This document shows positions 9-26,035 of a stretch of 64,000 bases of DNA, piece after piece. The notes under the pieces were generated by a model. The model was not told the origin of the DNA and made no database searches. It worked only from the letters and a program-made list of their open reading frames with translations. Made by a program: the position numbers and the translations under genes. Source of the DNA: Candidatus Heteroclostridium caecigallinarum (GTDB lineage: Bacteria; Bacillota; Clostridia; Christensenellales; CAG-314); contig CAJFSP010000003.1 of NCBI GenBank assembly GCA_904419725.1, positions 33,139-97,138 on the forward strand. Direction: 5' to 3'. The stretch's first letter is position 1, and the number at the start of each line of letters is the position of its first letter.

Positions 9-1637
9 ATGAAAAAGAAACTTTTGACAGTGCTTCTGGCGGTCGTCATGGTTTTCGGCACTTTCGGCCTTGTGGCTTGCGGAAGCGGCACCAACCCTGA
101 TGATGACTATAACTACTATGCCAGCAAGTACAATATCGAAGGAGAAATCGGCTTGTCGTCGCTGAACTATTTCGGCGTGCAGAGAATGCTGACCACGGCG
201 GGCAATTTCCTGCTTTATTTCGATACCGAAACCGGCTCTGACGCCGCCAAGAGAATCAAAGCCGTCAATGACGTGGCTGTTGAATGGGGCGTGACTATTT
301 ATCACTTTAACCCTGACCTCAGCGGCGGATTTGCAAGCAACAGCGAAGCGGCTCACGTTCCTGACCTGACCAAAGACTTCACAAACTCCGACAGCGACGA
401 CTATGACGCCGTTATAGCCGGTAGCCAGCTGGCTTTGATTCAGGAGGAACTTATCAAGATGCTCGGCCTTGATACCGACCCTGAAACTCCTGACAATCAG
501 TATCCTGATGTTGTGCCTGACAAGACTGTATTCGCGGTGGAAGGCGCGGCTCCTACTTACAGCGTGCCTAAAAGCGCGCCTGAAGAGCCTAAAGCAGGTG
601 ATTATGTAGCCCCTGAAACTACTTATAAAGCTAGTGTAACCGCTTTCAGTTATGATAAAGCGGCAGACGCAGTGAGAGCGGTTGCGCAGAGAAAACCTAG
701 TTTCGGTCAGTACGCTTCTGACGGCAGCGCGGCGAGCTGGTCTGATGTTGGCCCTGAAGGTTTCCTGACCGAAACCGTCGACACTTTTAACCCGTTTGCC
801 GACGGCAGACTGCATATGTACAACAGCGACCAGAACGTTGACGAATACACCGCAGATAAAACCGATGTGTATGTGCAACTTGCCAACTACGGTCAGTTCG
901 CTTGGCTGCTCGACCACAACGACGGTTACTTTGAAGTGTTCTTCGGCAACGCTTGGTGCGGCAACGCCCAGGCAATCGCCTTCCTGACCAACGACAGAGC
1001 CAAAGATTACGGCATTGACAAAATCTATATGATTGACTCCCGTCTTGACGGCGGTATTGTTTCCGACGCTTATGTCTGGACTGAAAATGAAGACGGTACT
1101 TCTGAATGGGTACTCACCAAAAACTTCCTGACCGGCGGCAGCAAAATGCCTTACGCCAACCTCAACACCAGGGCGGGCGACGCCACGGGCATTAAGTACA
1201 ACTTCAACTATCTGTACGGCACCTTCCTGAGAGATTATCTTGACGCCAACAAAGAAGGCGGCTATGAATCCGAATGGAACATCAGGGGTACCGCGGGCAA
1301 TGAGCTGAATATCACTTTGGGCGCAGAAGGTTCAGCGCCTGTGAAATTCACCAGAATGTGCACGCCTAACATCATGCTGTTCAATGGTGAAGGTGAAAAC
1401 ACCAGAGCCGACCTCGTGGATTTCGCTGAGGCTGAATATTCTTACACCAACACGTTCTATGACGATAACCCTGAAACCATCGCCTGGAACGAAGCGGTGA
1501 GCGCCGTGTTCGAACAGAACCCGTACGCTTATTACAGCCCGCTGGTAACGGCTGACGAAGAAGCCGCTACTTCCGAAGAAGAAGATTCTTCCGATACGGA
1601 AGCGGCCGCTCCTCCTGCAGGCGGCAGCGCTTGCTGA
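9..1637 (+). CDS. Lipoprotein, paralog A of a two-member family (two degenerate thioredoxin-fold-like modules, acidic tail, C-terminal Cys)
   Basis: 542-aa ORF. MKKKLLTVLLAVVMVFGTFGLVAC-GS is a signal peptide with a lipobox Cys. Paralog of 20414..22321: near-identical signal peptide, shared NPxDDYNYY, FFGxAWCxNxQ, TRMCxPNIM and APPAxGG..C-stop motifs. Terminator at 1781..1809. Confidence 0.85.
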   Translation: MKKKLLTVLLAVVMVFGTFGLVACGSGTNPDDDYNYYASKYNIEGEIGLSSLNYFGVQRMLTTAGNFLLYFDTETGSDAAKRIKAVNDVAVEWGVTIYHFNPDLSGGFASNSEAAHVPDLTKDFTNSDSDDYDAVIAGSQLALIQEELIKMLGLDTDPETPDNQYPDVVPDKTVFAVEGAAPTYSVPKSAPEEPKAGDYVAPETTYKASVTAFSYDKAADAVRAVAQRKPSFGQYASDGSAASWSDVGPEGFLTETVDTFNPFADGRLHMYNSDQNVDEYTADKTDVYVQLANYGQFAWLLDHNDGYFEVFFGNAWCGNAQAIAFLTNDRAKDYGIDKIYMIDSRLDGGIVSDAYVWTENEDGTSEWVLTKNFLTGGSKMPYANLNTRAGDATGIKYNFNYLYGTFLRDYLDANKEGGYESEWNIRGTAGNELNITLGAEGSAPVKFTRMCTPNIMLFNGEGENTRADLVDFAEAEYSYTNTFYDDNPETIAWNEAVSAVFEQNPYAYYSPLVTADEEAATSEEEDSSDTEAAAPPAGGSAC

Positions 1638-2043: not shown

Positions 2044-3333
2044 TTATTTTTTGTCTTTTTCCAGCATGATGTCGAGAATTTCTTTGTCTGTCTGAATCAT
2101 GCCCGGGTTTGCCACTCTGCTGATGTTACGGATGCAGTCTTCCGCCGTTTCGCCGCACACGCCGTCGGACACGCGCAGAACCGAGTTGTTTACGGCGAGC
2201 AGTGCGCTCATTACGCCCGCCGCCAGCGAGGTTGCCAGTTTAAGGGCGCAGCCCACTTTGCCGCCGTCGCATATCATGCCGGTTATGGTGCCCGTCATGT
2301 TGCGGATTGCCCAGGCGATTTGCTCGTCGCTGCCGCCCATGAGATAAGTTATCGCCGCCGACGCCGCCGTGGCGGAAGCCAGACTGCACGCGCACATGGC
2401 GGACAGTTTGCCTATGCTGAAATTGATGTAACTGTTGAGCAGGTGCCCGAAAGCCAGCGCCCGTATGAGCGAAAGAGGGGACGAGCCAAGTTCTTTTGCC
2501 GCCTCGCTGATTGGCAGTATCACCGCCAGACCTTTGCTGCCGGCGCCGGCGCTGCTCATGATGGTGTAAGGACAGCCGTCCAGGCGGCCTTCTATCGAAG
2601 AAGCGACTTTGAGCATGATGTTGGTCATCAGGTCGCTTTTGAGGGTTTTGCCCATTTCCTTTTGCAAGGTGGCGGAGATGCCAACGCCGCTCGGGTGGGC
2701 GAGGCTTTCGGCCGCCACGCCCTCGTTCATCCTGACGCCGTCCATGAGAAAAGCCAGGTCGCTTTCGTCGGCGGTGTCGACAAGGGCGCGTATTTCTGCC
2801 ACGGTCATCTGGGCGAGAGCGTCCATCAGCGGATTGCCCGTGGAGCCTGCCGCCGTCTCTTTGGCGAAAACGTCTTTGCCGTTTACCGACACGCGCGTCA
2901 CGTTGGTGTGGGCGTTTTGAATTTCACAGAAGCCCGTGCCGTTAGATGTGACAGCCTCGCACGCGACATACAGCGAGCGCTTGCCACGGTCTATCGTTAC
3001 GGAAACATTGCCGCTTTCGGCGAGTTTCTCCGCCGCCGCGGCCTTTTCCGCCGTAAGGTCGGCGAGGAGTTGCAGACTTTTTTTCGGGTTGGCGAGCGCG
3101 GCGCCTATCGCCGCCGCGTAGTTAAGCCCTACTTTGGAAAAGCCCGGTATGCCCACCGACATGCCGTTTTTGTATATATTTGGGTTGGTCACCACTTTAA
3201 GGCTCTTTACTTCGCCTTTGACGGCGTCAGCCGCCGTCGCCGCCGCCAACGCCACGCATACGGGTTCGGTGCAGCCGAGAGCCGGTACGACGTCCTGGCG
3301 CAAAAGTTCGCACATTTGTTGTTTTGTAAGCAT
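2044..3333 (-). CDS. UPF0597/YhaM (CyuA-type) L-cysteine desulfidase-like protein (serine dehydratase alpha-like)
   Basis: ORF 2044..3357. Start moved to ATG 3333 (GGAGGG 5 nt upstream, MLTKQQM). VVPALGCTEP, LSAMCACS and GMICDGGKVGCALK motifs match the YhaM family. Confidence 0.8.
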   Translation of the reverse strand: MLTKQQMCELLRQDVVPALGCTEPVCVALAAATAADAVKGEVKSLKVVTNPNIYKNGMSVGIPGFSKVGLNYAAAIGAALANPKKSLQLLADLTAEKAAAAEKLAESGNVSVTIDRGKRSLYVACEAVTSNGTGFCEIQNAHTNVTRVSVNGKDVFAKETAAGSTGNPLMDALAQMTVAEIRALVDTADESDLAFLMDGVRMNEGVAAESLAHPSGVGISATLQKEMGKTLKSDLMTNIMLKVASSIEGRLDGCPYTIMSSAGAGSKGLAVILPISEAAKELGSSPLSLIRALAFGHLLNSYINFSIGKLSAMCACSLASATAASAAITYLMGGSDEQIAWAIRNMTGTITGMICDGGKVGCALKLATSLAAGVMSALLAVNNSVLRVSDGVCGETAEDCIRNISRVANPGMIQTDKEILDIMLEKDKK

Positions 3334-3403
3334 TTTTCCCTCCGCGATATATATCAATTATAAAATCCGCTTTGCCGCAAGTCAAGGGGAATTGAAAAGG
3401 GCG

Positions 3404-12259: not shown

Positions 12260-13063
12260 ATGAGCAAAGAAGACAAAAAGGCAAAAAGAAGAAAAAAAGC
12301 CCTGTTTTACAGGATAGGCTTTCCGCTCGTCAAACTGTTTCACGGCAGGCAGAAAGTGCTGTATGAGGAAGCGGTGGACCCGGGCGAACCGGTGATATTC
12401 GTCGCCAACCACGCGCAGGCTTTCGGCCCGATATCCATGATTGTCAATTTCGACAGGACGGTGCGGCCGTGGATAGCCGCCGACGTGATGTTCAAAGAGA
12501 CGGCGGCGGATTTCGTGTTTGTGCAGTTTTTCGCGGGGAACATCAAAAAACACAAGCGCTGGAATATGTTCAAAGCGCGGTTTGTCGGCAGGGCGCTTGT
12601 GGCGATATTCGCCAACGTGGGCGGCATACCCGTGTATTTTGACAGACGTCTTATCAAAACAATGAGCGACAGCGTCGCCGTGCTGGAAGGCGGCGAGCCG
12701 CTTGTGATATTCGGCGAAACGCCGAAGCGGTTTTCGCCTTATGTGGCGGAAATCAGCGACGGGTTTCCGCAGGTGGCGCATATGTATTACAAAAAGACGG
12801 GCAGGCGCGTCAGGTTTTGCCCCGTTTACATAGCGCCCAAGTATATTTCGGTGGGCAGGGCGACGGAGTGGAACCCCGACGCCGACGTCAAAGCGGAACG
12901 CCGCCGTGTGGCGGAGTATCTCAGGGACAATATTTTGCGGCTTGCCGAGGCGCTGCCCGAGCATAAACCCATCCCTACATACACGGAGGAGTATTTCGCC
13001 GCGATAGAAGCGAAGGAAAGAGAAAAGGCGGAGCAGACGCCCGCGCCGACGGAAACCAAGTGA
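12260..13063 (+). CDS. PlsC-like acyltransferase family protein (divergent)
   Basis: 267 aa. FVANHAQAFGP resembles the NHxxxxD block but lacks the Asp. IFGETPKR resembles the FPEGTR block. No clear SD. Confidence 0.55.
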   Translation: MSKEDKKAKRRKKALFYRIGFPLVKLFHGRQKVLYEEAVDPGEPVIFVANHAQAFGPISMIVNFDRTVRPWIAADVMFKETAADFVFVQFFAGNIKKHKRWNMFKARFVGRALVAIFANVGGIPVYFDRRLIKTMSDSVAVLEGGEPLVIFGETPKRFSPYVAEISDGFPQVAHMYYKKTGRRVRFCPVYIAPKYISVGRATEWNPDADVKAERRRVAEYLRDNILRLAEALPEHKPIPTYTEEYFAAIEAKEREKAEQTPAPTETK

Positions 13064-13071
13064 GGTCCAAA

Positions 13072-15408
13072 ATGGAAGAAAAACAATTTGCACCCCTGAC
13101 CGACGCCGTGTTCGTCGAGGATTACAACAAAAAATACGCGGCAATAGAAGAGGCGGAGGCCGCCGCCCTCAAAAAGAGCGCCGAACTGGACAGGCAGCGT
13201 GACGGCGACATAATAAACATCACCAACGCGATGGAAGCCAGCAAGGTGATTATTCACGACAAAATAGCGGCTACCGACGACGAATGCAAACAGCGCCTGC
13301 GCGACGCCGACGAAAAATGCATGGCGGAACTGCGTGCCTGCGAAGGCAGAATGGCCGCCGCCAGAAGGGTGCTTGCCAAAGCCGAACAGGAATGCGAAAC
13401 CCGCCGCGACAAGGCCGCGCGCGAGTCGGAAAAATTCGCCGAGGAAATAGAAAAGAAATACAAGAGCGACACGGCGGCGGAAGAAAAACGCTACAAGGAC
13501 GTTCTCAAACAACGCGACGCCGACCTGAAAAAGCAGGCGGACGGTTTTGCCGCGCGCAAAGCCGAACTCAAAGTGTCTTACGATGCCGGCGTGGCGGAGA
13601 TAAAGGGCAAAATCGCTGACCTGCACGAATATTACAAAACGCAGGAAGAGGCGGGCGTGCAGGAACTAAACAAGGTCAAGGAAGAGTGCTTCGCCAAGAT
13701 TGCCGAAAAACAGGGCGAGTTTGACGCCGTGCAGGCCGATTACGCCGAAAAACTGAAAAACTGCGAAAAGCAGAAAATCCGTCTGCTGAAAAACGAACTG
13801 GCTCTGCACAAAAACTCATGCGAGTCTGCCATAGCCGTGCTGAAAGGCGAAATAGCCACGGCGCAGAAAGTCTATGAAATAAAGCACAACGATATTTTCA
13901 CCCAGCTGGTCAGGGAACTGACGGGGCAGCAAAGGCAACTGCGCACGCTTAAAGCGAGATATGACTTCGACAAGGCGGAAATAGGCTATGAACAGCGCGT
14001 CGCCGAGGCGAAAAACCAAAACAGAATACTTGCCGAAGACAGGGAGCACGAAGAAAAACTCACCGAGGCGGAACTTGACAGGCAGGACGGTCTGAACAAA
14101 AAATACTCGGGCGATTTCTGCGGCAATTTCGACATGGAAAGCATGCAGAAAAAAGCCCAGAGAGATTTTGACATTGCCCTTGAAGAAGAAGACAAAAACA
14201 TGCTTCTCGCCAAACTCGCCCTGGAAGCCGACAACAAGTCGATTGACTGCGACAGGGTTATCGCCGTAGCCGCCCGTGAGGCGGAACTGGCGTGCGACGA
14301 GGCGAAAGCCGAAAGAGACATAAACGCCGAAAGGGAAAAATGCCGCCACGCCAAGCAGATACTGCGCATGGACGTGTTTTCGCTGGCGTTCAAAACCGCC
14401 AACAAAAGCGAAAAACTTTTGAATAAAAGAAAACTGGAAAGAATAGAAAACGGGATAAACGGCCGCATAGAAAAGGTAAAGCAGCGCCTGGCGGACGACC
14501 TTGAGTTTATTTCGACGCTGCGCGAGTACCAGGCGGCGGAATACGACGCCGTGAAAAAGACGACGGAGTCTTTTTACGCCAAACAGAAAGAGGCGCTGGC
14601 GGCGCTTATCGACGAGGCGGAAAAAGAGGGCAGGGAAAAGGAAAAAGCCGTTTTCGCGAGGTCGCTTGCCGATACCGAAGCCAACGAGGCCGCCGCCGCC
14701 GAGTCGCTCAAAGAGCAGGCGAAATATATCGACGACATGACCGCCACGGAGGAAAACAGGGTGAGGGAGCAGGCGCAGAAAGAACTTGCCGCGCTGACGC
14801 TGTTTATCAAGGAAAGCGGCGACCTTATGGAAAAACACAACGGCATGTCGGACGAACTTACCGCCAGGGCCGACGAGCAGCGTAAAGACGCCGTGGTGGA
14901 TTTGCTGGGCATTTACGAAGGGCTTCTCGCCGATTACGACGGCGGGCTTGAAGGGGCGCGGGCGGACAACGCTAAAAATTACGACGCTTTTGCTAAGGCG
15001 TCGGTAGTGGAAAAGGAAACTTTTTTGCAGGATACCGATGACAGAAAAGAGCGCGAGGCGAAAAACTGCGGCGCCAGGCAGGCGGAAATCGGTGACAAAT
15101 ACACACAGTTTGTCAACGAGGCGGAAAAGAACAAAGCCATATCCAAAGGCATGCTGGAAGAACAGCTCAACAAGAGTTTTGACGCGCGTCAGGACAAAAA
15201 AGCGGAAAACGCCCAGCTTGTCGCCCGTAAAGCAAACGAACTCAAATCTTTTGAAAACGCCTGCAACAGGGCGGTTGCCGACGTGCGCAAGGAATGCGAC
15301 CGCAAAATAAACGAATATGAAAAACTGCGCGCCAAAGAAGAAAAATGGCTGCTCAAAAACGGCAAAGTTGACTACCGCAAAGAGTGGTGGGTCGTGGATT
15401 TCGACTGA
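13072..15408 (+). CDS. Large (about 778 aa) cytoplasmic E/K/A-rich coiled-coil protein of unknown function
   Basis: ORF 13060..15408. Preferred start is ATG 13072 (GAGGT SD 5 nt upstream). No signal peptide or TM helix. Heptad-like charged sequence throughout, ending in KEWWVVDFD. Confidence 0.7.
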   Translation: MEEKQFAPLTDAVFVEDYNKKYAAIEEAEAAALKKSAELDRQRDGDIINITNAMEASKVIIHDKIAATDDECKQRLRDADEKCMAELRACEGRMAAARRVLAKAEQECETRRDKAARESEKFAEEIEKKYKSDTAAEEKRYKDVLKQRDADLKKQADGFAARKAELKVSYDAGVAEIKGKIADLHEYYKTQEEAGVQELNKVKEECFAKIAEKQGEFDAVQADYAEKLKNCEKQKIRLLKNELALHKNSCESAIAVLKGEIATAQKVYEIKHNDIFTQLVRELTGQQRQLRTLKARYDFDKAEIGYEQRVAEAKNQNRILAEDREHEEKLTEAELDRQDGLNKKYSGDFCGNFDMESMQKKAQRDFDIALEEEDKNMLLAKLALEADNKSIDCDRVIAVAAREAELACDEAKAERDINAEREKCRHAKQILRMDVFSLAFKTANKSEKLLNKRKLERIENGINGRIEKVKQRLADDLEFISTLREYQAAEYDAVKKTTESFYAKQKEALAALIDEAEKEGREKEKAVFARSLADTEANEAAAAESLKEQAKYIDDMTATEENRVREQAQKELAALTLFIKESGDLMEKHNGMSDELTARADEQRKDAVVDLLGIYEGLLADYDGGLEGARADNAKNYDAFAKASVVEKETFLQDTDDRKEREAKNCGARQAEIGDKYTQFVNEAEKNKAISKGMLEEQLNKSFDARQDKKAENAQLVARKANELKSFENACNRAVADVRKECDRKINEYEKLRAKEEKWLLKNGKVDYRKEWWVVDFD

Positions 15409-17589: not shown

Positions 17590-18756
17590 ATGATTTTGAC
17601 CGTTCTCGCCGTGCTGGTGGTCGTTTTGGCGCCGGCAGGTATAATATGGCTCACCAAAAAGGTGAAATTTCTGGGGCTTATCGGCGCGGTGGCAGTGTGC
17701 TATGTGCTGGGTCTCATCCTTGCCGTCAGCGGCCTGGGATACGACAAGGACGTTACATACGCCATAACGGAATATTCTATACCGGTGGCGATTCCGCTCA
17801 TTTTGTTTTCGTTCAATCTGTCTTCGGCGAAAAAACTCGCCAAAAAGTCGCTGCTTTCATTCGGCTTGCAGTGCGTGGCGGTCATGGTGGTCGCCTCGGC
17901 GGCGTTTTTCATCGCCAATCCGCACCTCGAAGACGCCGCGATTTTTTCGGGCATGACCACCGGGCTTTATACCGGCGGCACGCCCAATCTCAACGCCATA
18001 GGCATGGCTATGGGGCTTGACCAGGGCAGGCTGGCAATGGCTAACACGTCCGACCTTATTATCGGCGGGGTGTATTTTCTGCTTCTGCTCACCGTCATGA
18101 AGCCGATATATTCTTTCGTGCTGGACAGAAAACTCAAAAACAAAACCGCCATGGGCGTCACGGAAGAAAACGACGCCGACAGGCAGTACGCCGACGAATA
18201 TACTTTCAAAAAAGTGGACGGCTGGAAAGGCGTGGGAAGACTCGCGCTCATCATTCTGCTCGCCGTGGGGTGCCTCGGCATTTCGGCGGGGATTTCATGG
18301 ATAATAACCGGCGCCATCGCCAACGTCACCATAATCATGCTGGGCGTGACGGCGCTGGGCATAGCGTTTTCTTTCTGGAAGCCCGTCCGCGAGACCAAGG
18401 GCACGTTCCAGGCGGGGCATTATCTGATACTCATGTTTTCGCTGGCGCTCAGCATGAGCATTGACCTGTCCGCCATCGTGGACGCGTTGCTGCCTATCAT
18501 GCTGTTTATGGCTTGCGTGCAGACCGGCTGCGTGATATTGCACATGCTGCTTTGCAAACTTTGCAAAATAGATTCGCACACGGCGATGATAACCAACGTG
18601 GCGGGCGTTTACGGCCCGGCGTTCATCCCGCCGATTGCCCAGACGCTGAAAGACGAAAGCGTGCTGGTGCCGGGGCTCATCTGCGGCATAATCGGATACG
18701 CCGTGGGAAACTTTTTGGGCATAGGGCTTTCAAGCCTGCTGCTGATGTTTGTCTGA
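17590..18756 (+). CDS. Polytopic membrane protein (DUF819/YjcL-like, tentative)
   Basis: 388 aa with about 10-11 predicted TM helices. AGGGGGA SD. The family call rests on recollection of overall layout only. Confidence 0.6.
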   Translation: MILTVLAVLVVVLAPAGIIWLTKKVKFLGLIGAVAVCYVLGLILAVSGLGYDKDVTYAITEYSIPVAIPLILFSFNLSSAKKLAKKSLLSFGLQCVAVMVVASAAFFIANPHLEDAAIFSGMTTGLYTGGTPNLNAIGMAMGLDQGRLAMANTSDLIIGGVYFLLLLTVMKPIYSFVLDRKLKNKTAMGVTEENDADRQYADEYTFKKVDGWKGVGRLALIILLAVGCLGISAGISWIITGAIANVTIIMLGVTALGIAFSFWKPVRETKGTFQAGHYLILMFSLALSMSIDLSAIVDALLPIMLFMACVQTGCVILHMLLCKLCKIDSHTAMITNVAGVYGPAFIPPIAQTLKDESVLVPGLICGIIGYAVGNFLGIGLSSLLLMFV

Positions 18757-18760
18757 ATCA

Positions 18761-18796
18761 GGGCGGAAACTTTTGTTTCCGCCTTTTTTTGTTTTT
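18761..18796 (+). terminator. Terminator after the membrane protein gene
   Basis: ggcggaaac-tttt-gtttccgcc followed by ttttttt. Confidence 0.85.
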
Positions 18797-18828: not shown

Positions 18829-18857
18829 TTGACTTCCGCAAATTAATTCTTTATAAT
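18829..18857 (+). promoter_or_regulatory. Consensus sigma-A promoter for the trx-ccdA operon
   Basis: TTGACT (18829-18834), 17-nt spacer, TATAAT (18852-18857). Confidence 0.75.
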
Positions 18858-18880
18858 ATATCGGTCAGGGAGGGCGTGAA

Positions 18881-19438
18881 ATGGAAAACAACGAAACGCA
18901 AGCCGTAAAACAAAAAACACCGCTGACAAAGCAGGAAAAAGTCAGAAGAGGGCTTCTCATCGGGATTTCTTCGCTGGTTATCGTCATCATTATTTTGGGG
19001 CTTGTCATCGGCAGTCCTTATTCTATCAAAAAGAACGACTATGAGTCTTTTGAAGCCATGACTACGGAGCATTATGACAGACCTACCGTGCTCATGATGT
19101 CAAAAAAGAGCTGTCCGTATTGCAAAAAGGTATATCCGGGTCTGTCGGAACTCAAAGACGAGTATGAAGACAGGGTCAACTTTTATTATATAGATATCCA
19201 CGACGGCGGCGAGGGGACTCAACTTTATAACAGATACAGACCGTCTGCCGGCGCGGGCAAAGACGGTGTGCCGACCGTTTGGTATTTCAGACCCAGGGCA
19301 AGCCTTGATGAAGACCTTTCGATATACGCGAAATATACCAACTATGGCGGCAAAGACGAGCTCAACACCAAGGGGCAGATTGAGGGCGTTATCCTTAAAC
19401 TGCTTGAATTGACGGAAGAAATGAAAAGCGGGGAGTGA
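18881..19438 (+). CDS. Membrane-anchored extracytoplasmic thioredoxin-like protein (CPYC active site)
   Basis: 185 aa. N-terminal TM anchor LLIGISSLVIVIIILGLVI, active site SCPYCKK, and cis-Pro loop GVPTVWYF. Confidence 0.85.
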   Translation: MENNETQAVKQKTPLTKQEKVRRGLLIGISSLVIVIIILGLVIGSPYSIKKNDYESFEAMTTEHYDRPTVLMMSKKSCPYCKKVYPGLSELKDEYEDRVNFYYIDIHDGGEGTQLYNRYRPSAGAGKDGVPTVWYFRPRASLDEDLSIYAKYTNYGGKDELNTKGQIEGVILKLLELTEEMKSGE

Positions 19439-19443
19439 ATATC

Positions 19444-20154
19444 ATGGGTATAGACATTATTTTGGAAAATCTGGGTAATCTCATCACCCAAAACTCGTGG
19501 TTGGGGCTCATCATCGCTTTTGTGGCGGGGCTTTTGACATTCTTTACCCCGTGCGGACTGTCTACCGTGCCGATGGTCATCGCTTATGTGGGCGGCACAA
19601 GTTCTACCCGCAAAAAGGCGTTTATGTATTCGGTTTTTGTGGCGCTGGGGCAGGTTGTGGTGCTGACCATTTACGGCGTTGTGCTGGCGTTTATTGGCGA
19701 AGTGTTTCCGGGCGGAATCTGGACGGTCATCTTCAATATCGTGATGGGCATACTTATGGTGGTCATGGCGTATGAAATGTGGGGGCTGACCAACATCTTC
19801 GGCAAGACGTGCGGCGCCAACATCAGGACGACCAAAAAAGGCATACTGGGCGCGTTTATAGTGGGGCTGACGGGCGTGGTGTTTTCGACGCCGTGTTCGA
19901 CGCCTGTGCTTGTCGCCATAACGGGCGTGGCGCTTACGTCGTCCACAGGCTGGATAAACACAATGCTGCTTATGCTTTTTTATTCCATCGGGTTCAGCCT
20001 GCTGGGCATTGTGTGCGGCACTTCCATAGGTTTTGTGCGCCAACTGCAAACATCGCCTAAATTTGAAAAAGCCGCCGAAATCATAAAGATAGTGCTGGGC
20101 TGCCTCATCTTTATTTTCGGCATATATCTCATTGTAAACACACTGTATTTCTGA
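19444..20154 (+). CDS. ccdA: CcdA/DsbD-family thiol:disulfide interchange membrane protein
   Basis: ORF 19435..20154. ATG 19444 preferred (GGGGAG 8 nt upstream). The two conserved TM cysteines lie in FFTPCGLSTVP and FSTPCSTPVL, within 6 TM helices. Confidence 0.88.
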   Translation: MGIDIILENLGNLITQNSWLGLIIAFVAGLLTFFTPCGLSTVPMVIAYVGGTSSTRKKAFMYSVFVALGQVVVLTIYGVVLAFIGEVFPGGIWTVIFNIVMGILMVVMAYEMWGLTNIFGKTCGANIRTTKKGILGAFIVGLTGVVFSTPCSTPVLVAITGVALTSSTGWINTMLLMLFYSIGFSLLGIVCGTSIGFVRQLQTSPKFEKAAEIIKIVLGCLIFIFGIYLIVNTLYF

Positions 20155-20167
20155 TATCAAACAGTAC

Positions 20168-20197
20168 GCGGCCGCCGCAAGGGCGGCCGTTTTTTTG
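20168..20197 (+). terminator. Terminator after ccdA
   Basis: cggccgcc-gcaag-ggcggccg followed by ttttttt. Confidence 0.85.
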
Positions 20198-20328
20198 TCC
20201 GTGACGCGGCATAAGGGGTTTTTTCATTCATATAATAGCGGAGTGGGGCAAAGCCGCCGCGATTTTCATGGCAAAATCTGCCGCATTTTTTTAACAAACT
20301 CCGCAGGCGATTTTTTTCTATTTTCCTA

Positions 20329-20357
20329 TTGACATTTCCCGTTTTGGTGAATATACT
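20329..20357 (+). promoter_or_regulatory. Promoter for lipoprotein B
   Basis: TTGACA (20329-20334), 17-nt spacer, TATACT (20352-20357). AAGGAGG SD before ATG 20414. Confidence 0.7.
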
Positions 20358-20413
20358 ATTGTCAAGATAATGTCATACATGAGCAGTATGATGAATTATT
20401 TAAGGAGGACAAT

Positions 20414-22321
20414 ATGAAAAAGAAACTTTTGACAGTGCTGTTGGCAGTTGTCATGGTTTTTGGTGTCTTCAGCCTTACGGCATGCGGCGCCAAAGAAAAT
20501 CCAGCCGACGACTACAACTACTACAGAAGTGTATATTCATCATTGAAAGATGAGGAAGACATCCGCATCCACTCGATGGTGTTTATGCAGCTTACCATGA
20601 TGCTGAGAACCCCTGGTCAGTATCTGATCTACACGGGCGGCGCATGGGACAGCAAAGCACAGGCTAACATCAAGGCCGTTAACGACATCGCCAAAGCATA
20701 TGACGTCCAGGTTTACAACCTCGACCTCAGACTCGACGGCGGTATCAGCATGGATTCAAAACTTGCCAGCAACTACAAGCAAGAAAAACTGAAAGACAAC
20801 ACTGTTGTTAATTATGCTGACGGTCTGTATGTGAACTCGAGTGCTTACAGAGACGCTTCCAGTGGTGAAGCTGTTGAAACTGTTAAGAACGGCAGCGCCA
20901 AAGTTGCTTCTATCAGAGAAGCTCTGCAGCAGTATCTTGGCACTTATGAAAGCCACGGTTTGAAGGCTCCTGAAGGTCTGACCGTTAAAGATATCCCTGA
21001 AGCGGCTCTTATTTCTCTCGATGTGACGGCTGCTCCAAGCTCCACTTCGACGACCGTTGCTCAGTACAAGATCTGGAACGACAAAGCGTCCGAGAATCCT
21101 GACAAAAAGGGTGAATATCTCCCAGGCTGGATTAACTTCACTATCTCTGACGCTGATTTGGTTGCGCTCAGTGGCCAGATTACCGCAAGCACTAATCCGC
21201 TTGTTGAGTTCGTTCTCGGCGATATCGGCTCTTTGAACCTTAAAAATGCAGCGAAGGAAGCTATTACCGGCACTGATGTTGATGTGTATGCCGCAGGCGA
21301 AGTTACCAACACTTCCACTTCTTACAACGTAACCGTTAAAGAAGGCGCTATCGGCAGCGACAGCAAAGGCCTTGAAAAAGTTATTCAGTCCATCGCTCTG
21401 ACCGTTCCTAGCTTCGGCAGCCAGATTCAGAGCGGCGGCGACCACGGCAACGGTCCTTATGACGCCAGCGGCTTTGACGCCAGCGTAATCGACTCGTTCG
21501 ACTACTTCGGCGACTACAGACTGCACATGGCGGGCGACTACGACACAGCGACCGACGGCTTCCTTGAAGGCACCGGCAGCGTGTACGAAGTTATCACTCT
21601 CCACGAATTCATTGACATCCTGAAGAACGTCAAAGAAGGTGACTTCAACGTGTTCTTCGGCGGCGCTTGGTGCCCTAACACCCAGTCCATCGCTAAAATC
21701 ACCAGCGAAATGGCTCAGGACTACGGTATCAACAGAATATTCTTCTTTGACCCTAACCTGGACGGTTCCGCTTCGGTTTACCTTGACGGTCAGTCCGTGT
21801 CCACGGGTATGAACATCAGAACCTCCAACCAGGAAGCTGTTACTGAAGGCAAACCTAGCGCATCCGCCGTTGACCAGTCCAACATGACTTTCTCCGGTCT
21901 GTACGCTTATCTGCTTGACACCATCAAAGCGGGCGGTCAGGAATATACTTCTTACTGGAACACCCAGTGGAAATCCGACATGCTGGGCAAAGGCAACAGA
22001 TACCAGCTGTTCATCAACGGCGAAATCTACACCAGAATGTGCGTTCCTAACATCATGGGCTTCACCGGTACCAGCGCGGGCGCTAAACTGGAAATCTGGA
22101 AAGAAGCCGAATATTACTGGGCTGACACTTCCGTTGCCGATTCCCCTGTAAGAATCGCTTGGGACAACGCTATCAAAGAAGTGTTTGAAGCCAATGACTA
22201 CGCGGTTTACAACCCGATTATGAGAGTTGAAGAAACTCCTGCCGCAGAAGAAGAAGACACCGGCAGTGCGTCTTCCGGCGGCAGCACCACGACGGCGCCT
22301 CCTGCGACTGGCGGTTGCTGA
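20414..22321 (+). CDS. Lipoprotein, paralog B (two thioredoxin-fold-like modules, long insertion, acidic tail, C-terminal Cys)
   Basis: 635 aa. MKKKLLTVLLAVVMVFGVFSLTAC-GA contains the lipobox. Internal duplication: YLIYTGGAWDSKAQANIKAVNDIAKAYDVQVYNLDLRLDGG versus FNVFFGGAWCPNTQSIAKITSEMAQDYGINRIFFFDPNLDGS. Ends in APPATGGC-stop. Confidence 0.88.
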   Translation: MKKKLLTVLLAVVMVFGVFSLTACGAKENPADDYNYYRSVYSSLKDEEDIRIHSMVFMQLTMMLRTPGQYLIYTGGAWDSKAQANIKAVNDIAKAYDVQVYNLDLRLDGGISMDSKLASNYKQEKLKDNTVVNYADGLYVNSSAYRDASSGEAVETVKNGSAKVASIREALQQYLGTYESHGLKAPEGLTVKDIPEAALISLDVTAAPSSTSTTVAQYKIWNDKASENPDKKGEYLPGWINFTISDADLVALSGQITASTNPLVEFVLGDIGSLNLKNAAKEAITGTDVDVYAAGEVTNTSTSYNVTVKEGAIGSDSKGLEKVIQSIALTVPSFGSQIQSGGDHGNGPYDASGFDASVIDSFDYFGDYRLHMAGDYDTATDGFLEGTGSVYEVITLHEFIDILKNVKEGDFNVFFGGAWCPNTQSIAKITSEMAQDYGINRIFFFDPNLDGSASVYLDGQSVSTGMNIRTSNQEAVTEGKPSASAVDQSNMTFSGLYAYLLDTIKAGGQEYTSYWNTQWKSDMLGKGNRYQLFINGEIYTRMCVPNIMGFTGTSAGAKLEIWKEAEYYWADTSVADSPVRIAWDNAIKEVFEANDYAVYNPIMRVEETPAAEEEDTGSASSGGSTTTAPPATGGC

Positions 22322-22377: not shown

Positions 22378-22409
22378 AAGACGCGCGGAAACGCGCGTCT
22401 TTATTTTTG
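22378..22409 (+). terminator. Terminator after lipoprotein B
   Basis: aagacgcgcg-gaaa-cgcgcgtctt followed by tattttt. Confidence 0.85.
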
Positions 22410-22463: not shown

Positions 22464-23021
22464 ATGACAAGCGGAGAAGCGCAAGTGAAAAGCGTTGTTT
22501 TCAAGAAACAGGCGGCGTTGTTTTGTGTGATATTTGTCTGCGGGGTTATGGCGCCGCGGCTGTTTTATCTGTTCGGCGCGGGCGACTATTGTGCGGCGCT
22601 TTCGCCGATGCACATTTTCGCCCTGACGTGCGGTTTTGTGTGCGGCAGACGGTACGGCGGCGTGTGCGGGTTTCTCATGCCCGTTGCCGCGGGAGCGCTG
22701 TTCGGCGCGCCTGCCGTTTATCCGACGGCGATTGCGATGGGCTTTGAAATGCTGGCGTACGGTTATCTGACAGGGCTGCTGCGAAGTAAAATTCACTTTG
22801 CCGCGGCGCTTGCCGCCGCCATGGCGGGAGGACGCCTTTTGTATCTCGCCGTCAGGCTTCTGCTTGGAGCGATGTACGGCGGGGCGTATTCTTTGACCGA
22901 GTGGTTTGGCGAGATGTTTCTGACCGGCTGGCCGTCGATTGTATGTTCTTTCGCTGTGGTGGGAATACTGATATTTACGCTGAAAAAAGCGGGAATCGTG
23001 AGGTTTGAGGAAAATGACTGA
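22464..23021 (+). CDS. ECF-type S-component-like membrane protein, substrate unknown
   Basis: 185 aa with 5-6 TM helices. LSPMHIFALTCGFVCG and FLMPVAAG resemble vitamin S-components. The alternative start GTG 22485 has GGAG 8 nt upstream, whereas ATG 22464 would be leaderless. Confidence 0.65.
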   Translation: MTSGEAQVKSVVFKKQAALFCVIFVCGVMAPRLFYLFGAGDYCAALSPMHIFALTCGFVCGRRYGGVCGFLMPVAAGALFGAPAVYPTAIAMGFEMLAYGYLTGLLRSKIHFAAALAAAMAGGRLLYLAVRLLLGAMYGGAYSLTEWFGEMFLTGWPSIVCSFAVVGILIFTLKKAGIVRFEEND

Positions 23022-23589
23022 AATTTTCAAAAGAGCGGCGGAACTGCTGACGAAAAAAGACAAAATTATAATCGCCATTGACGGACAGTGCTGTGCGGGC
23101 AAGTCGGCGATGGCGCGGTTTATGGCGGAGAACCTCGACTGCAACGTGTTTCATCTTGACGATTTTTATCTCACTGAGGAAGAAAGGCAAAACAAAAGCA
23201 GGGGTTTTGTCAACGCCGACGTGTCGAGATTCAGGGCGGAGGTGCTGGAAAACCTCAGGGGCACGGCGCCTTTCGATTATGAAAAATACGACTGCGAAAG
23301 CGGCACGGTGAGCAAATTTGTGGTGACGGAGCAAAAGCCGCTCAACATTGTGGAGGGGGCGTATTGCCTTTGCGACGAACTTGCCGGTTATTACGACATT
23401 AAAATCTTTTTGAAAATAGACGAAGCGGAGCAGCTCAGCCGCCTTAAAAAGCGAGAGACCGACATAACTCCTTATATCGAAAAGTGGATTCCGCTGGAAA
23501 ACGATTATATCGCCGCCCAGCGGCCGCAGGACAAAGCCGATTTTGTCGGCAGGATAAGCGCTGACGGCGAGTTTATAAAAACACTTTGA
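23014..23589 (+). CDS. P-loop kinase of the uridine kinase/NRK-like family
   Basis: ORF 23005..23589. ATG 23014 preferred; it overlaps the S-component stop (AATGACTGA). Walker A is IAIDGQCCAGKSAM, followed by HLDDFYL. Confidence 0.7.
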   Translation: MTEIFKRAAELLTKKDKIIIAIDGQCCAGKSAMARFMAENLDCNVFHLDDFYLTEEERQNKSRGFVNADVSRFRAEVLENLRGTAPFDYEKYDCESGTVSKFVVTEQKPLNIVEGAYCLCDELAGYYDIKIFLKIDEAEQLSRLKKRETDITPYIEKWIPLENDYIAAQRPQDKADFVGRISADGEFIKTL

Positions 23590-24865: not shown

Positions 24866-26035
24866 ATGAAATACAATTTCGATGAAATAATCAACCGCAT
24901 CGGCACCGCCTCGGAAAAATGGGAGTCGGGCGGCCACGGCGGCGTGTATTTTGACAAAAACTCGCTGTCATTTTCCATCGCCGACATGGACTTCGCCCTG
25001 GCGCCGTGCATCGACAGGGCAATCAGGGACAGGCTTGACCAGAAAGTGCTGGGTTATACCGACGTCAACACGGACGACTACCGCGACGCGGTAACGGGCT
25101 GGTTCAACCGCCGTTTCGGCTGGAAAATAGACGGCAGGCTGATTTACGCCGTGGACGGCGTCATGCCGGGCGTGAGAAAGGCGATTTCCGCCCATACAGA
25201 GCCGGGCGACGGCGTTATCATACAGCAGCCGGTTTATCCGCCGTTTATGAGTTCGGTTGAGTCGCTTGGCAGAAAAATCGTGGTCAACAAACTCATTAAA
25301 GGGGACGACAACTTTTACACAATGGATTTCGACGCGCTCGAAGCGCAGCTCGCCGACAAAAACAACAAAGTCATGCTGCTGTGCAGCCCGCACAACCCTG
25401 TCGGAAGAGTGTGGACAAAAGAAGAACTCGAAACCGTTGCCGACCTGTGCCACAAACACGGCGTCGTGCTTGTTTCCGACGAAATCCACTGCGACCTGAC
25501 CAGAACCGGCGTTGTGAATATCCCTGTGGCGAAACTGCGCCCGGAATACGACATCATCACATGCGTGTCGCCGTCCAAAACCTTTAATATAGCGGGGCTG
25601 CAAGTCGCCAACATGGTGTTCACCAACATGGCGCTGCGCAAAAAGACGGCGGGACCCGGCGGCGTGCAGATGGCTAATCCTCTGTCCAAAGCGGCGCTTA
25701 TCGGCGCTTACAACGGCGGCGACGACTGGCTGGACGAGGCGAGAAAGTACATAGACGGCAACCTGGTGTTTCTCAAAGAATGGCTGGAAGCCAATCTGCC
25801 GAAAGTAAAATATCTCGTGCCGCAGGGAACCTACCTCACCTGGCTGGATATTTCCGCTTATCAGCCTGATTCGGAAAAATTCGCCAAAGACTGCGGCAGG
25901 GGCGGCATTATAGTGGAGCAGGGCGACGTCTTCGGCGAAGGCGGAAAGGGCTTTATACGCTTTAATGTCGGCACGCCGAAAGCAAACATCGCCGAAGGGC
26001 TTGCCCGCATGAAAAAGGTGATTGAGGTGTACTGA
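24866..26035 (+). CDS. patB: PLP-dependent C-S lyase (MalY/PatB cystathionine beta-lyase type aminotransferase)
   Basis: 389 aa. The N-terminus YNFDEIINRIGTASEKWE and SPSKTFNIAGL (PLP-binding Lys) are typical of the family. Confidence 0.88.
   Translation: MKYNFDEIINRIGTASEKWESGGHGGVYFDKNSLSFSIADMDFALAPCIDRAIRDRLDQKVLGYTDVNTDDYRDAVTGWFNRRFGWKIDGRLIYAVDGVMPGVRKAISAHTEPGDGVIIQQPVYPPFMSSVESLGRKIVVNKLIKGDDNFYTMDFDALEAQLADKNNKVMLLCSPHNPVGRVWTKEELETVADLCHKHGVVLVSDEIHCDLTRTGVVNIPVAKLRPEYDIITCVSPSKTFNIAGLQVANMVFTNMALRKKTAGPGGVQMANPLSKAALIGAYNGGDDWLDEARKYIDGNLVFLKEWLEANLPKVKYLVPQGTYLTWLDISAYQPDSEKFAKDCGRGGIIVEQGDVFGEGGKGFIRFNVGTPKANIAEGLARMKKVIEVY

What the first reader, a model, noticed from the sequence alone, without database searches (positions are those of the whole stretch)
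18829..22321. Membrane thioredoxin + CcdA reductant-import operon placed directly upstream of the monothiol lipoprotein
A consensus promoter (18829..18857) drives a TM-anchored CPYC thioredoxin (18881..19438). It is translationally coupled to a CcdA/DsbD-type electron-transfer membrane protein (19444..20154).

After a terminator, lipoprotein B follows with its own strong promoter.

No cytochrome c maturation or sporulation StoA/ResA-type neighbours are visible, so the client of this reducing pathway is not obvious. The adjacent lipoprotein with a monothiol Trx-like site and terminal Cys is a natural candidate substrate or partner. This is a hypothesis only.
Basis: inference. Interest (0 to 1): 0.55.

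Follow-up and report, generated by a model that had tools for sequence, protein, structure and literature searches.

The report
Membrane thioredoxin–CcdA beside three-cysteine lipoprotein
An ordinary two-gene system that passes reducing power out of the cell sits next to the gene for an uncharacterised surface lipoprotein with a thioredoxin-like single-cysteine site and a flexible tail ending in a cysteine. That lipoprotein may be the system's client and may help these gut anaerobes handle cystine, but neither point is proven.

Summary
A terminator-bounded two-gene unit (promoter 18829-18857; TM-anchored CPYC thioredoxin 18881-19438; CcdA 19444-20154) lies upstream of a separately transcribed lipoprotein gene, lipB (20414-22321).

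The pair is an ordinary CcdA/extracytoplasmic-thioredoxin module. It exports reducing power; it does not import it.

LipB has no Pfam or NCBIfam match. It belongs to a large unannotated superfamily of secreted Gram-positive proteins with two thioredoxin-like domains and a WCxN[T/S] single-cysteine site. LipB's narrow gut-Clostridia clade adds a Cys two residues before the cis-proline and a disordered tail ending in Cys.

In all seven lineages where this trx-ccdA could be examined, a family member lies within about 1.5 kb. However:
- the region is a conserved housekeeping synteny block;
- which paralog is adjacent varies;
- most paralogs are unlinked;
- outgroup trx-ccdA cassettes have no such neighbour.

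Other contexts point to cysteine or cystine metabolism: TcyP-like cystine transporters, PatB C-S lyase and CyuA-like proteins. Where the Cys tail is missing, the adjacent gene encodes a separate anchored protein ending in Cys.

The client/partner hypothesis is plausible and partly supported, not shown.

The parts
18760..18785 (+). Intrinsic terminator of the upstream DUF819 membrane-protein gene (17590-18756). It isolates trx-ccdA from upstream transcription.
   Evidence: 11-pair stem followed by a T-run. PF05684, 107 bits.
18829..18857 (+). Sigma-70-type promoter of trx-ccdA (TTGACT-17-TATAAT).
   Evidence: 11 of 12 matches. This is a consensus match only; activity was not tested.
18881..19438 (+). 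Membrane-anchored extracytoplasmic thioredoxin, 185 aa. TM helix at residues 25-43 (18953-19009). CPYC at residues 78-81 (19112-19123). cis-Pro in GVPT.
   Evidence: Profile match to the solved thioredoxin-domain protein 3gnj, E=1.6e-11. The clade-specific juxtamembrane motif GSPYSIKKN is invariant.
19444..20154 (+). CcdA (DsbD transmembrane-domain family), 236 aa. Conserved redox cysteines C37 (19552-19554) and C151 (19894-19896), both in TPC motifs.
   Evidence: PF02683, 51.9 bits against a cut-off of 27.1.; homologues are 236 aa.
20168..20190 (+). Intrinsic terminator ending the trx-ccdA unit.
   Evidence: 9-pair stem with 8 GC pairs, followed by a T-run.
20329..20413 (+). lipB promoter (TTGACA-17-TATACT, 20329-20357) and 56-nt leader, with the perfect palindrome TCATAC-N7-GTATGA at 20373-20391. 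The module is conserved across lineages far better than the coding sequence.
   Evidence: Identity is 80-98% for the module, 52-75% for the CDS and 42-53% for the distal intergenic DNA. No Rfam match. The RNA fold is not significant.
20414..22321 (+). Lipoprotein B, 635 aa. Signal peptide and lipobox are residues 1-24. A Cys-less thioredoxin-like N-domain spans about residues 50-180. A clade-specific beta-rich insertion spans about 198-313. The thioredoxin-like C-domain spans about 390-595.
   Evidence: AF2 pLDDT 81, pTM 0.78. All Foldseek hits are thioredoxin-fold proteins.
21671..21673 (+). Codon of Cys420 in the WCPNT motif. It occupies the position of the nucleophilic Cys of a CxxC site; the second Cys is replaced by Thr.
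   Evidence: It aligns with the WCGPC site of thioredoxins. Of 100 distant relatives, 91 carry WCx[NDY][TS] and only 1 carries WCxxC.
22040..22042 (+). Codon of Cys543 in MCVP, two residues before the predicted cis-proline.
   Evidence: Across the superfamily this Cys co-occurs with a C-terminal Cys (Fisher p=6e-6).
22229..22318 (+). Disordered acidic/Ser/Pro-rich C-terminal tail (residues 606-635) ending in ...ATGGC. Cys635 is the last residue (22316-22318).
   Evidence: pLDDT about 30; 133 of 137 core family proteins end in Cys; the tail is encoded as a separate protein in some relatives.
22378..22401 (+). Terminator of lipB.
   Evidence: 10-pair stem followed by a T-run.
9..1637 (+). Lipoprotein A, a 542-aa paralog with the same signal peptide, WCGNA, MCTP and a ...GGSAC end. 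It lies 17 kb from trx-ccdA.
2044..3357 (-). SDH_alpha-only protein of 437 aa, convergent with lipA. Its architecture resembles CyuA/YhaM L-cysteine desulfidases. This is context, not shown to be part of the system.
   Evidence: PF03313, E=4.5e-45. The same family lies next to a family paralog in L002, L007, L009 and L011. The CyuA assignment rests on domain architecture and on a remembered motif, not on a test.
24866..26035 (+). PatB-family C-S lyase, 2.5 kb downstream of lipB. This is context, not shown to be part of the system.
   Evidence: TIGR04350, 359.6 bits against a cut-off of 340.

Best explanation
Shown:
- trx-ccdA is a self-contained, terminator-bounded bicistron.
- It encodes the two parts of a standard extracytoplasmic reducing pathway. 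CcdA relays electrons from cytoplasmic thioredoxin across the membrane through its two TPC cysteines. A type-II membrane-anchored thioredoxin (CPYC) receives them outside.
- lipB is a separate transcription unit with its own conserved promoter.
- LipB is a lipid-anchored protein built of two thioredoxin-like domains, the first without Cys and the second with a CxxT site.
- In its clade LipB also has a Cys next to the cis-proline loop and a roughly 30-residue disordered tail ending in Cys.

Inferred:
- Cys420 attacks an extracellular disulfide. On context evidence the most likely substrate is cystine or a related low-molecular-weight sulfur compound.
- The mixed disulfide is resolved by the tail Cys635, and/or by Cys543, acting as a tethered second thiol.
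- The resulting protein disulfide is reduced by the membrane thioredoxin, which CcdA recharges.

On this reading the lipoprotein family is the terminal client of the trx-ccdA module. Any paralog could serve, not specifically LipB.
For: Module identity:
-.

Linkage:
- A family member lies within about 1.5 kb of this trx-ccdA in 7 of 7 lineages, despite rearrangements.
- The CPYC thioredoxin type, with its invariant GSPYSIKKN motif, was found only in the lipoprotein-bearing clade.
- Outgroup cassettes carry a ResA-like CEPC thioredoxin and have no lipoprotein neighbour.

Redox capability of the lipoprotein:
- Thioredoxin fold.
- The nucleophilic Cys is conserved across 295 superfamily representatives.
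- The two extra cysteines co-vary (p=6e-6).
- 133 of 137 core proteins end in Cys.
- In relatives lacking the tail, the adjacent gene encodes a separate anchored low-complexity protein whose only Cys is its last residue: L032 3356-3931 and L031 6146-6937.

Sulfur-amino-acid context:
- TcyP-like cystine transporter genes lie 15-20 nt upstream of three-Cys relatives (L029, L036). L036 sits within a NifS-NifU-CysK / Rrf2 / MetH cluster.
- PatB C-S lyase occurs in L032 and in the window.
- CyuA-like genes lie next to paralogs.
Against: - lipB has its own promoter, and a terminator separates it from ccdA.
- The conserved lipB palindrome is absent from the trx promoter, so there is no sign of co-regulation.
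- The whole region is a conserved housekeeping synteny block within a narrow clade, so adjacency could be inherited rather than selected.
- Which paralog is adjacent varies, and most paralogs are unlinked.
- Three-Cys relatives at TcyP loci have no ccdA within 8-10 kb.
- The superfamily mostly has a single Cys and no linked reductase.
- Cys-Cys distances in the model could not be read.
- There is no experimental data of any kind.
- The cystine link rests on four contexts outside the window's clade.
Confidence: 0.42

Rival explanations
1. The adjacency is inherited synteny. trx-ccdA is a general-purpose extracytoplasmic reductase of this clade, serving other, unseen clients: exported proteins with cysteines, a StoA-like sporulation role, or surface Msr encoded elsewhere. 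The lipoproteins work independently of it.
For: - Separate promoters and terminators.
- A conserved block of unrelated housekeeping genes surrounds both.
- trx-ccdA cassettes without any lipoprotein neighbour occur in other Clostridia.
- Most lipoprotein paralogs are unlinked.
- S. pneumoniae has a ccdA2-etrx2 bicistron with no client gene beside it (PMC3914529).
Against: - A family member stays within about 1.5 kb in 7 of 7 lineages, even where gene order changed (L002, L007, L016).
- The diverged CPYC thioredoxin type is confined to the lipoprotein clade.
- No alternative client is visible in the window.
Confidence: 0.33
2. The lipoprotein is a PDI/DsbC-like surface isomerase, holdase or thiol-protecting factor for other exported proteins, and has nothing to do with small-molecule sulfur. 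trx-ccdA keeps its single active-site Cys reduced, as DsbD does for DsbC/DsbG.
For: - Tandem thioredoxin-like domains, with PDI and ERp57 among the whole-protein Foldseek hits.
- CxxS/T sites can support isomerisation (established knowledge of PDI variants).
- The superfamily occurs on S-layer-anchored and wall-associated proteins.
- Several paralogs per genome, some with no sulfur-metabolism context.
Against: - Recurrent operon-like pairing with SDF/TcyP-type transporters and Cys/Met genes in four independent contexts.
- The tethered terminal-Cys module has no counterpart in PDI or DsbC.
Confidence: 0.15
3. The family is a set of abundant, diversifying surface lipoproteins (adhesins or antigens) that use a thioredoxin-like scaffold. 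The terminal Cys serves covalent attachment or oligomerisation rather than catalysis.
For: - The signal peptide and first 24 nt are invariant, and the ribosome-binding context is strong.
- The central regions are highly variable and insertion-prone, with lengths from 476 to 1101 aa.
- Coding regions have been exchanged between loci.
Against: - The active-site Cys, cis-Pro and several polar residues are strictly conserved across paralogs and in distant phyla.
- Transporter and metabolic gene contexts.
Confidence: 0.07

Closest known systems
Streptococcus pneumoniae CcdA1-Etrx1-MsrAB2 and CcdA2-Etrx2 (PMC3914529); S. gordonii CcdA/SdbB-MsrAB pathway (PMC7034828)
   Same: CcdA is paired with a surface-tethered thioredoxin in a Gram-positive bacterium without cytochrome c maturation genes nearby. 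Electrons flow cytoplasmic Trx -> CcdA -> surface Trx -> surface client. One of the streptococcal pairs is likewise a bicistron with no client gene in the operon.
   Different: - Here the thioredoxin is anchored by a TM helix, not a lipid.
- Gene order is trx-ccdA.
- The candidate client is not a methionine sulfoxide reductase. It is an unannotated tandem thioredoxin-like lipoprotein transcribed from its own promoter.
- No functional data exist.
Bacillus subtilis CcdA-ResA and CcdA-StoA (established knowledge)
   Same: A membrane-anchored extracytoplasmic thioredoxin-like protein is reduced by CcdA. The outgroup cassettes even carry ResA's CEPC motif.
   Different: The window has no resB/resC or cytochrome c genes and no sporulation PBP context. 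The active site is CPYC, and the thioredoxin has a clade-specific insertion and C-terminal extension.
E. coli DsbD -> DsbC/DsbG (established knowledge)
   Same: A membrane electron relay keeps a thioredoxin-fold protein on the outside reduced, so that it can act on other thiols or disulfides.
   Different: DsbC and DsbG are CxxC homodimers in a diderm periplasm. Here the downstream protein has a CxxT site plus a remote and a tail cysteine, and it is lipid-anchored on a monoderm surface.
PedC/BrcD bacteriocin-accessory thioredoxins (TIGR01295; PDB 1zma)
   Same: 1zma is the best structural match of the LipB C-domain (probability 0.99, E=3e-3). Some superfamily members show faint TIGR01295 similarity. 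The pattern '...WC...(I/V)Y(F/Y)(F/I)D...' is shared.
   Different: LipB gives no TIGR01295 hit at E<=0.1. It has CxxT rather than CxxC, a large insertion, a tandem arrangement and no bacteriocin genes.
SoxY carrier arm of the Sox sulfur-oxidation system (PMC5336275)
   Same: A cysteine on a flexible glycine-rich terminal peptide serves as a tethered thiol that carries covalently bound sulfur species between active sites. This is a functional analogy only.
   Different: The folds are unrelated, and SoxY is periplasmic in sulfur oxidisers. The resemblance is limited to a Gly-rich terminal Cys arm and has not been tested.

Membership tests
CcdA / DsbD transmembrane domain (PF02683) | Profile match above the curated threshold over the whole domain | tested here: met
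   51.9 bits against a cut-off of 27.1, covering profile positions 2-215 of 219. PF13386 also scores above its cut-off.
CcdA / DsbD transmembrane domain (PF02683) | Two conserved redox cysteines in Pro-Cys motifs within transmembrane helices | tested here: met
   FTPC37GLS and STPC151STP, each inside a hydrophobic segment.
CcdA / DsbD transmembrane domain (PF02683) | Transfers electrons from cytoplasmic thioredoxin to an extracytoplasmic partner | not testable with these tools
   Needs redox-state assays in mutants.
Extracytoplasmic membrane-tethered thioredoxins (ResA/StoA/Etrx type) | Thioredoxin fold with a CxxC site and a cis-proline | tested here: met
   CPYC at residues 78-81 and GVPT. 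Profile match to the solved thioredoxin-domain protein 3gnj, E=1.6e-11. Pfam thioredoxin models score just under their cut-offs.
Extracytoplasmic membrane-tethered thioredoxins (ResA/StoA/Etrx type) | N-terminal anchor that places the domain outside the cell | tested here: met
   A single TM helix at residues 25-43 with KQEKVRR on its N-terminal side. The topology is inferred from the positive-inside rule.
Extracytoplasmic membrane-tethered thioredoxins (ResA/StoA/Etrx type) | Genetic pairing with ccdA | tested here: met
   A 5-nt gap in the window. The pairing is kept in every relative and in the outgroups.
Etrx-type operon with the client encoded in the operon (ccdA1-etrx1-msrAB2) | Client gene co-transcribed with ccdA and trx | tested here: not met
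   A terminator at 20168-20190 and an independent promoter at 20329-20357 separate lipB from ccdA.
Etrx-type operon with the client encoded in the operon (ccdA1-etrx1-msrAB2) | Client is a methionine sulfoxide reductase | tested here: not met
   The window has no MsrA or MsrB motif. LipB has no Pfam or NCBIfam hit.
Cytochrome c maturation system II / ResA context | resB/resC (CcsB/CcsA) genes or CxxCH apocytochromes nearby | tested here: not met
   No CxxCH in window ORFs. No such Pfam families within +/-10 kb of the syntenic loci. The rest of the genome was not seen.
Bacterial lipoprotein | Signal peptide ending in a lipobox [LVI][ASTVI][GAS]C | tested here: met
   MKKKLLTVLLAVVMVFGVFSLTAC24, invariant across the family. 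Lipidation itself cannot be tested here.
Thioredoxin-fold superfamily (LipB domains) | beta-alpha-beta-alpha-beta ... beta-beta-alpha topology, with the active-site Cys at the N-terminus of helix 1 and a cis-Pro loop | tested here: met
   - AF2 secondary structure for both domains.
- All Foldseek hits are thioredoxin-fold proteins: probability up to 0.99, TM up to 0.64-0.68 on the target, but E no better than 3e-3.
- WCPN aligns with WCGPC and MCVP with MSIP of thioredoxins (E=0.23, weak).
Thioredoxin-fold superfamily (LipB domains) | Dithiol CxxC active site | tested here: not met
   C-P-N-T. Of 100 distant relatives, 91 have WCx[NDY][TS] and only 1 has WCxxC.
PedC/BrcD disulfide isomerase (TIGR01295) | Profile match above the cut-off (120 bits) | tested here: not met
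   LipB has no hit at E<=0.1. Relatives score about 16-19 bits.
Unannotated tandem thioredoxin-like superfamily (defined here) | Two thioredoxin-like modules about 210-310 residues apart in a secreted protein, the second carrying WCxN[T/S] | tested here: met
   295 representatives with E<=1e-3 and 207 with E<=1e-10. LipB residues about 68-110 and 410-450 are the two cores.

The most novel reading that the evidence does not exclude
The lipoproteins and their wider superfamily are a previously unrecognised class of cell-surface 'tethered-thiol' disulfide reductases or carriers. A CxxT thioredoxin-like domain would work with a cysteine on a flexible terminal arm, which is either fused or encoded by the neighbouring gene. 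Together they would capture and reduce extracellular cystine, or related disulfide or persulfide compounds, for uptake by TcyP-type or other SDF transporters. In this gut-Clostridia clade the CcdA-thioredoxin pair would recharge them, giving a complete electron path from the cytoplasm to an external nutrient disulfide.
Probability: 0.2. Interest if true: 0.8.

Novelty: new variant of a known kind. Interest (0 to 1): 0.58.

Why it matters
CcdA-thioredoxin pairs are common in anaerobic Firmicutes that have no cytochromes c, and their clients there are mostly unknown. This locus offers a concrete, testable candidate client.

It also exposes a large protein family with no database annotation: 295 cluster representatives in Clostridia, Paenibacillus S-layer proteins and actinobacterial-type wall proteins. 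The family has a conserved exposed cysteine on the cell surface.

If the link to cystine uptake holds, it would explain how strict gut anaerobes that depend on cysteine obtain it from the oxidised form outside the cell. It would also add a new mechanism, a tethered terminal thiol, to extracytoplasmic redox biology.

Tried and rejected
- **Known RNA element in the lipB leader or the intergenic regions.** Rfam gave only sub-threshold terminator-like hits. The leader hairpin is no more stable than shuffled sequence (z=-1.0). A promoter or operator is the more likely reading.
- **Gene conversion as the cause of the invariant signal peptide.** Rejected: beyond the first 24 nt the codons differ synonymously between paralogs.
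- **Shared operator between the trx and lipB promoters.** The palindrome is unique to the lipB-type promoter.
- **Specific relatedness of the membrane thioredoxin to the lipoprotein domains.** hhalign aligns the active sites, but with only 7% probability.
- **PedC/BrcD membership.** Not met.
- **Cytochrome c, Msr or StoA clients in the window.** None found.
- **Wider sampling.**
  - The metagenome scan with the thioredoxin profile returned only two loci, one essentially identical to the window.
  - The genome scan keyed on the signal peptide found only four MAGs.
  - tblastn of two superfamily members against plasmids found nothing.
- **Organism name.** Cluster look-ups gave none. Related MAGs are labelled uncultured Clostridia or Christensenellaceae from animal guts.
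- **Cys-Cys distances in the AF2 models.** Coordinates are not returned, so these could not be read.
- **SDF transporters of L032 and L034.** They are not TcyP-like, so the cystine reading does not extend to them automatically.

Full report
**The observation**

- The promoter scan finds TTGACT-17-TATAAT at 18829-18857 and TTGACA-17-TATACT at 20329-20357, each 11 of 12 matches.
- Strong terminator hairpins lie at 18760-18785, 20168-20190 and 22378-22401.
- trx (18881-19438) and ccdA (19444-20154) therefore form a terminator-bounded two-gene unit. lipB (20414-22321) is a separate unit.
- The trx stop and the ccdA ATG are 5 nt apart, with GGGGAG 8 nt upstream of the ATG. Homologues are 236 aa, which supports that start. 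Coupling is plausible but not shown.

**The pair**

*CcdA*
- It matches PF02683 above threshold (51.9 vs 27.1 bits).
- It keeps both Pro-Cys redox cysteines, C37 and C151, inside hydrophobic segments.

*The thioredoxin*
- It has one TM helix (residues 25-43) with positive charges on its N-terminal side.
- CPYC provides its only two cysteines, and there is a GVPT cis-proline motif.
- Pfam thioredoxin models fall just under their cut-offs. A family profile matches solved thioredoxin-domain proteins: 3gnj (E=1.6e-11), 5um7 and YkuV.

This is the known CcdA / extracytoplasmic-thioredoxin reducing pathway. It moves reducing power outward, so 'import' in the finding's title is a slip.

The window has no CxxCH, MsrA or MsrB motifs. 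No cytochrome c biogenesis families lie within 10 kb in the syntenic loci.

**The lipoprotein**

LipB has no Pfam or NCBIfam match. A paralog, LipA, lies at 9-1637.

Alignment of 24-50 homologues shows:
- an invariant signal peptide and lipobox (MKKKLLTVLLAVVMVFGVFSLTAC);
- invariant C420 in WC[PGH]N[TAS]Q;
- invariant C543 in MCxP;
- a terminal Cys after an acidic/Ser/Pro-rich tail. Of 137 core proteins, 133 end in Cys.

An AlphaFold model (pLDDT 81, pTM 0.78) shows two beta-alpha-beta-alpha-beta-type domains, a LipB-specific beta-rich insertion and a disordered tail.

Foldseek returns only thioredoxin-fold proteins, both for the whole protein and for the C-domain alone. These include PDI/ERp57, thioredoxins and the PedC-like 1zma at probability 0.99. 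E-values are modest, 3e-3 at best.

A profile-versus-PDB search aligns WCPN with the WCGPC site and MCVP with the cis-proline loop of thioredoxins. This match is weak (E=0.23).

LipB is thus a tandem thioredoxin-like lipoprotein. Its first domain has lost the cysteine. Its second has a CxxT site, a Cys two residues before the cis-proline and a Cys-tipped flexible tail.

**A wider, unannotated superfamily**

A full HMM search of 1.84 billion representatives found 295 proteins at E<=1e-3 and 207 at E<=1e-10.

Beyond the core lipoproteins these are secreted proteins of 450-2300 aa with the same tandem module. They include:
- Paenibacillus proteins with three SLH domains;
- actinobacterial-type proteins with Ig-like domains;
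- other lipoproteins.

Of 100 distant representatives:
- 91 carry WCx[NDY][TS] and only one carries WCxxC;
- 44 have a single cysteine in the whole protein, and in 41 of those it is the motif Cys.

Pfam and NCBIfam annotate only their anchoring domains. The cis-Pro-adjacent Cys and a C-terminal Cys occur in a minority and go together: 13 of 18 versus 18 of 105, Fisher p=6e-6.

**The neighbourhood test**

The core family is confined to a narrow lineage of uncultured gut Clostridia/Christensenellaceae-like MAGs, with 2-4 or more paralogs each. The CPYC thioredoxin type was found only in that lineage.

trx-ccdA contexts were recovered for seven lineages, with Trx identity to the window of 46-100%.
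- Five have a family member immediately downstream of ccdA: window/L019, L012, L015, L001/L025 and L002.
- Two have one upstream, separated by a fructose-bisphosphate aldolase gene: L007 and L016.

The evidence is weakened in four ways:
- The whole 20-kb region is a conserved block of unrelated housekeeping genes: SNF transporter, MscS, DUF819, AsnA, aminotransferase, RlmL, SpoVG and a Mur ligase.
- A distance tree shows the LipB type downstream of ccdA in four lineages but at another locus in L002. There the ccdA-adjacent gene belongs to a different paralog group.
- Most paralogs have no trx-ccdA within 10 kb.
- The nearest outgroup CcdA homologues (42-47% identity) keep a TM-thioredoxin partner with a ResA-like CEPC motif but have no lipoprotein neighbour.

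**What the lipoproteins might do**

Three independent hints point to sulfur amino acids.

*In-clade neighbours*
- A paralog is repeatedly next to a 437-441-aa SDH_alpha-only protein: window 2044-3357, L002, L007, L009 and L011. Its architecture and a remembered PALGCTEP motif resemble CyuA/YhaM cysteine desulfidases. This is a lead, not a test.
- A PatB-family C-S lyase that scores above its NCBIfam cut-off lies 2.5 kb downstream of lipB.

*Distant three-Cys relatives*
- They sit 15-20 nt downstream of an SDF transporter whose best annotated relatives are 'L-cystine transporter' (40-44% identity, E about 1e-65; L029).
- The L036 transporter is 60% identical to that of L029 and lies inside a NifS-NifU-CysK / Rrf2 / MetH cluster.

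*Other relatives*
- Two further relatives follow a different SDF subfamily, preceded by a PatB lyase or another PLP enzyme (L032, L034).

One Paenibacillus context shows none of these metabolic or transporter genes.

**The terminal cysteine is a module**

In two relatives whose tandem-thioredoxin protein lacks the Cys tail, the gene immediately upstream encodes an anchored, low-complexity, acidic-tailed protein. Its only cysteine is its last residue.
- L032 3356-3931 ends ...EEPEIC.
- L031 6146-6937 ends ...SDEDC.

Among 491 ORFs in all fetched DNA, 30 end in Cys:
- 23 are family members;
- 3 are these tail proteins (2 distinct);
- the rest are unrelated Cys-rich ORFs. That gives a background of about 1%.

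Fused here and separate elsewhere, the tail behaves like a dedicated tethered thiol. This recalls C-terminal shuttle cysteines and the SoxY carrier arm (PMC5336275). The resemblance is by analogy only.

**Most likely mechanism**

Shown: the parts and their arrangement.

Inferred:
- Cys420 attacks an external disulfide, with cystine the leading candidate.
- The tail Cys and/or Cys543 resolves the mixed disulfide.
- The membrane thioredoxin reduces the resulting protein disulfide.
- CcdA recharges the thioredoxin from the cytoplasm.

I put the partner relationship at roughly 0.4 and the cystine-specific reading at roughly 0.2.

The main rival, at about 0.33, is that adjacency is inherited synteny and the pair serves other clients. 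A PDI/DsbC-like protein-folding role and a surface-antigen role are less likely.

**Comparison with known systems**

The closest systems are the streptococcal CcdA-Etrx(-MsrAB) pathways (PMC3914529; PMC7034828), B. subtilis CcdA-ResA/StoA, and DsbD-DsbC/G.

The electron-relay logic is the same. The differences are:
- the candidate client family, which is new, unannotated, CxxT-type and has a tail Cys;
- the TM rather than lipid anchor of the thioredoxin;
- the independent transcription of the client gene.

It does not qualify as an Etrx-type three-gene operon, a ResA/cytochrome c system or a PedC/BrcD protein, because defining features were tested and not met.

**Verdict**

The trx-ccdA pair is ordinary. 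The neighbouring lipoprotein is not: it opens onto a sizeable uncharacterised family with a plausible, testable role in extracellular thiol-disulfide chemistry.

I rate it a new variant of a known kind, with interest 0.58.

Noticed in passing
window 20329-20413; also L012, L019, L025-27, L001, L002 (19894-19955), L015, L011: The promoter and 56-nt leader of the lipoprotein gene downstream of ccdA are 80-98% identical across lineages. The coding sequences are only 52-75% identical and the distal intergenic DNA 42-53%. The module contains the unique perfect palindrome TCATAC-N7-GTATGA. There is no Rfam match and the RNA fold is not significant, so it is probably an operator for an unknown regulator.
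   Followed up: partly
window 9-83 and 20414-20488; all lipoprotein loci: The 24-residue signal peptide and lipobox are invariant between paralogs that are only about 35% identical overall. The first 24 nt (ATGAAAAAGAAACTTTTGACAGT...) are identical at the DNA level everywhere, and the ribosome-binding context TATAGGAGGA is shared. Later codons differ synonymously, so selection acts on the peptide and on translation initiation rather than through gene conversion.
   Followed up: partly
window 9-1637 (+) and 2044-3357 (-); L002, L007, L009, L011: A second family member (LipA) lies next to an SDH_alpha-only protein of 437 aa with CyuA/YhaM-like architecture. The same pairing recurs in four related genomes, sometimes with a fructose-bisphosphate aldolase gene between the two.
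   Followed up: partly
L002 (10001-11938 and 19956-21386) versus L001 and L009: The coding regions at the ccdA-downstream locus and at the SDH_alpha/aldolase locus are swapped between two genomes, while the conserved promoter stays in place. This suggests recombination between paralogs through their conserved ends.
   Followed up: partly
P0165-P0275 (e.g. P0167, P0169, P0172: Paenibacillus SLH proteins; P0185, P0206, P0221: actinobacterial type): A large unannotated superfamily of secreted proteins carries a tandem thioredoxin-like module with a WCxN[T/S] site. In 41 of 100 distant representatives this Cys is the only cysteine in the protein. Pfam and NCBIfam recognise only the anchoring domains.
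   Followed up: partly
L032 3356-3931; L031 6146-6937: These are separate small anchored low-complexity proteins whose only cysteine is the last residue, after an acidic run. Each is encoded immediately upstream of a tandem-thioredoxin gene that lacks the Cys tail, so it looks like a split version of the fused tail seen in the window.
   Followed up: partly
L029 8584-11704; L036 5891-10983: TcyP-like L-cystine transporter genes are followed within 15-20 nt by three-Cys family members. In L036 a second tandem-thioredoxin lipoprotein with collagen-like repeats follows, and the surrounding genes are NifS, NifU, CysK, Rrf2, MTHFR, MetH and a Cys/Met PLP enzyme.
   Followed up: partly
window 24866-26035 and 26039-26965: A PatB-family C-S lyase (above the NCBIfam cut-off) is followed by an AEC-family (auxin efflux carrier type) membrane transporter. 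Both are conserved in the synteny block downstream of lipB.
   Followed up: partly
window 13060-15408: A 782-aa protein rich in Glu, Lys and Ala, apparently coiled-coil. Its syntenic homologues (779-780 aa in L012, L015, L025) have no Pfam hit. It is conserved upstream of the MscS-like gene. Function unknown.
   Followed up: no
window 22464-23021 and 23005-23589: An ECF-transporter S-component-like membrane protein overlaps by 17 nt a small P-loop nucleoside/uridine-kinase-like protein. This is possibly a vitamin or nucleoside salvage pair directly downstream of lipB.
   Followed up: no
L021 7525-8717; L024 7462-8690: Outgroup Clostridia carry TM-thioredoxin (CEPC, the ResA motif) plus CcdA cassettes with no cytochrome c genes nearby. 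Their neighbours are a CDGSH iron-sulfur protein in L021 and an SBF/ACR3-like transporter in L024. The clients are likewise unknown.
   Followed up: no
window 37941-38570: A 209-aa ORF with a very cysteine-rich C-terminus: three CxxC motifs in the last 20 residues, ending ...SCCNCMSSCMHC. Not examined.
   Followed up: no
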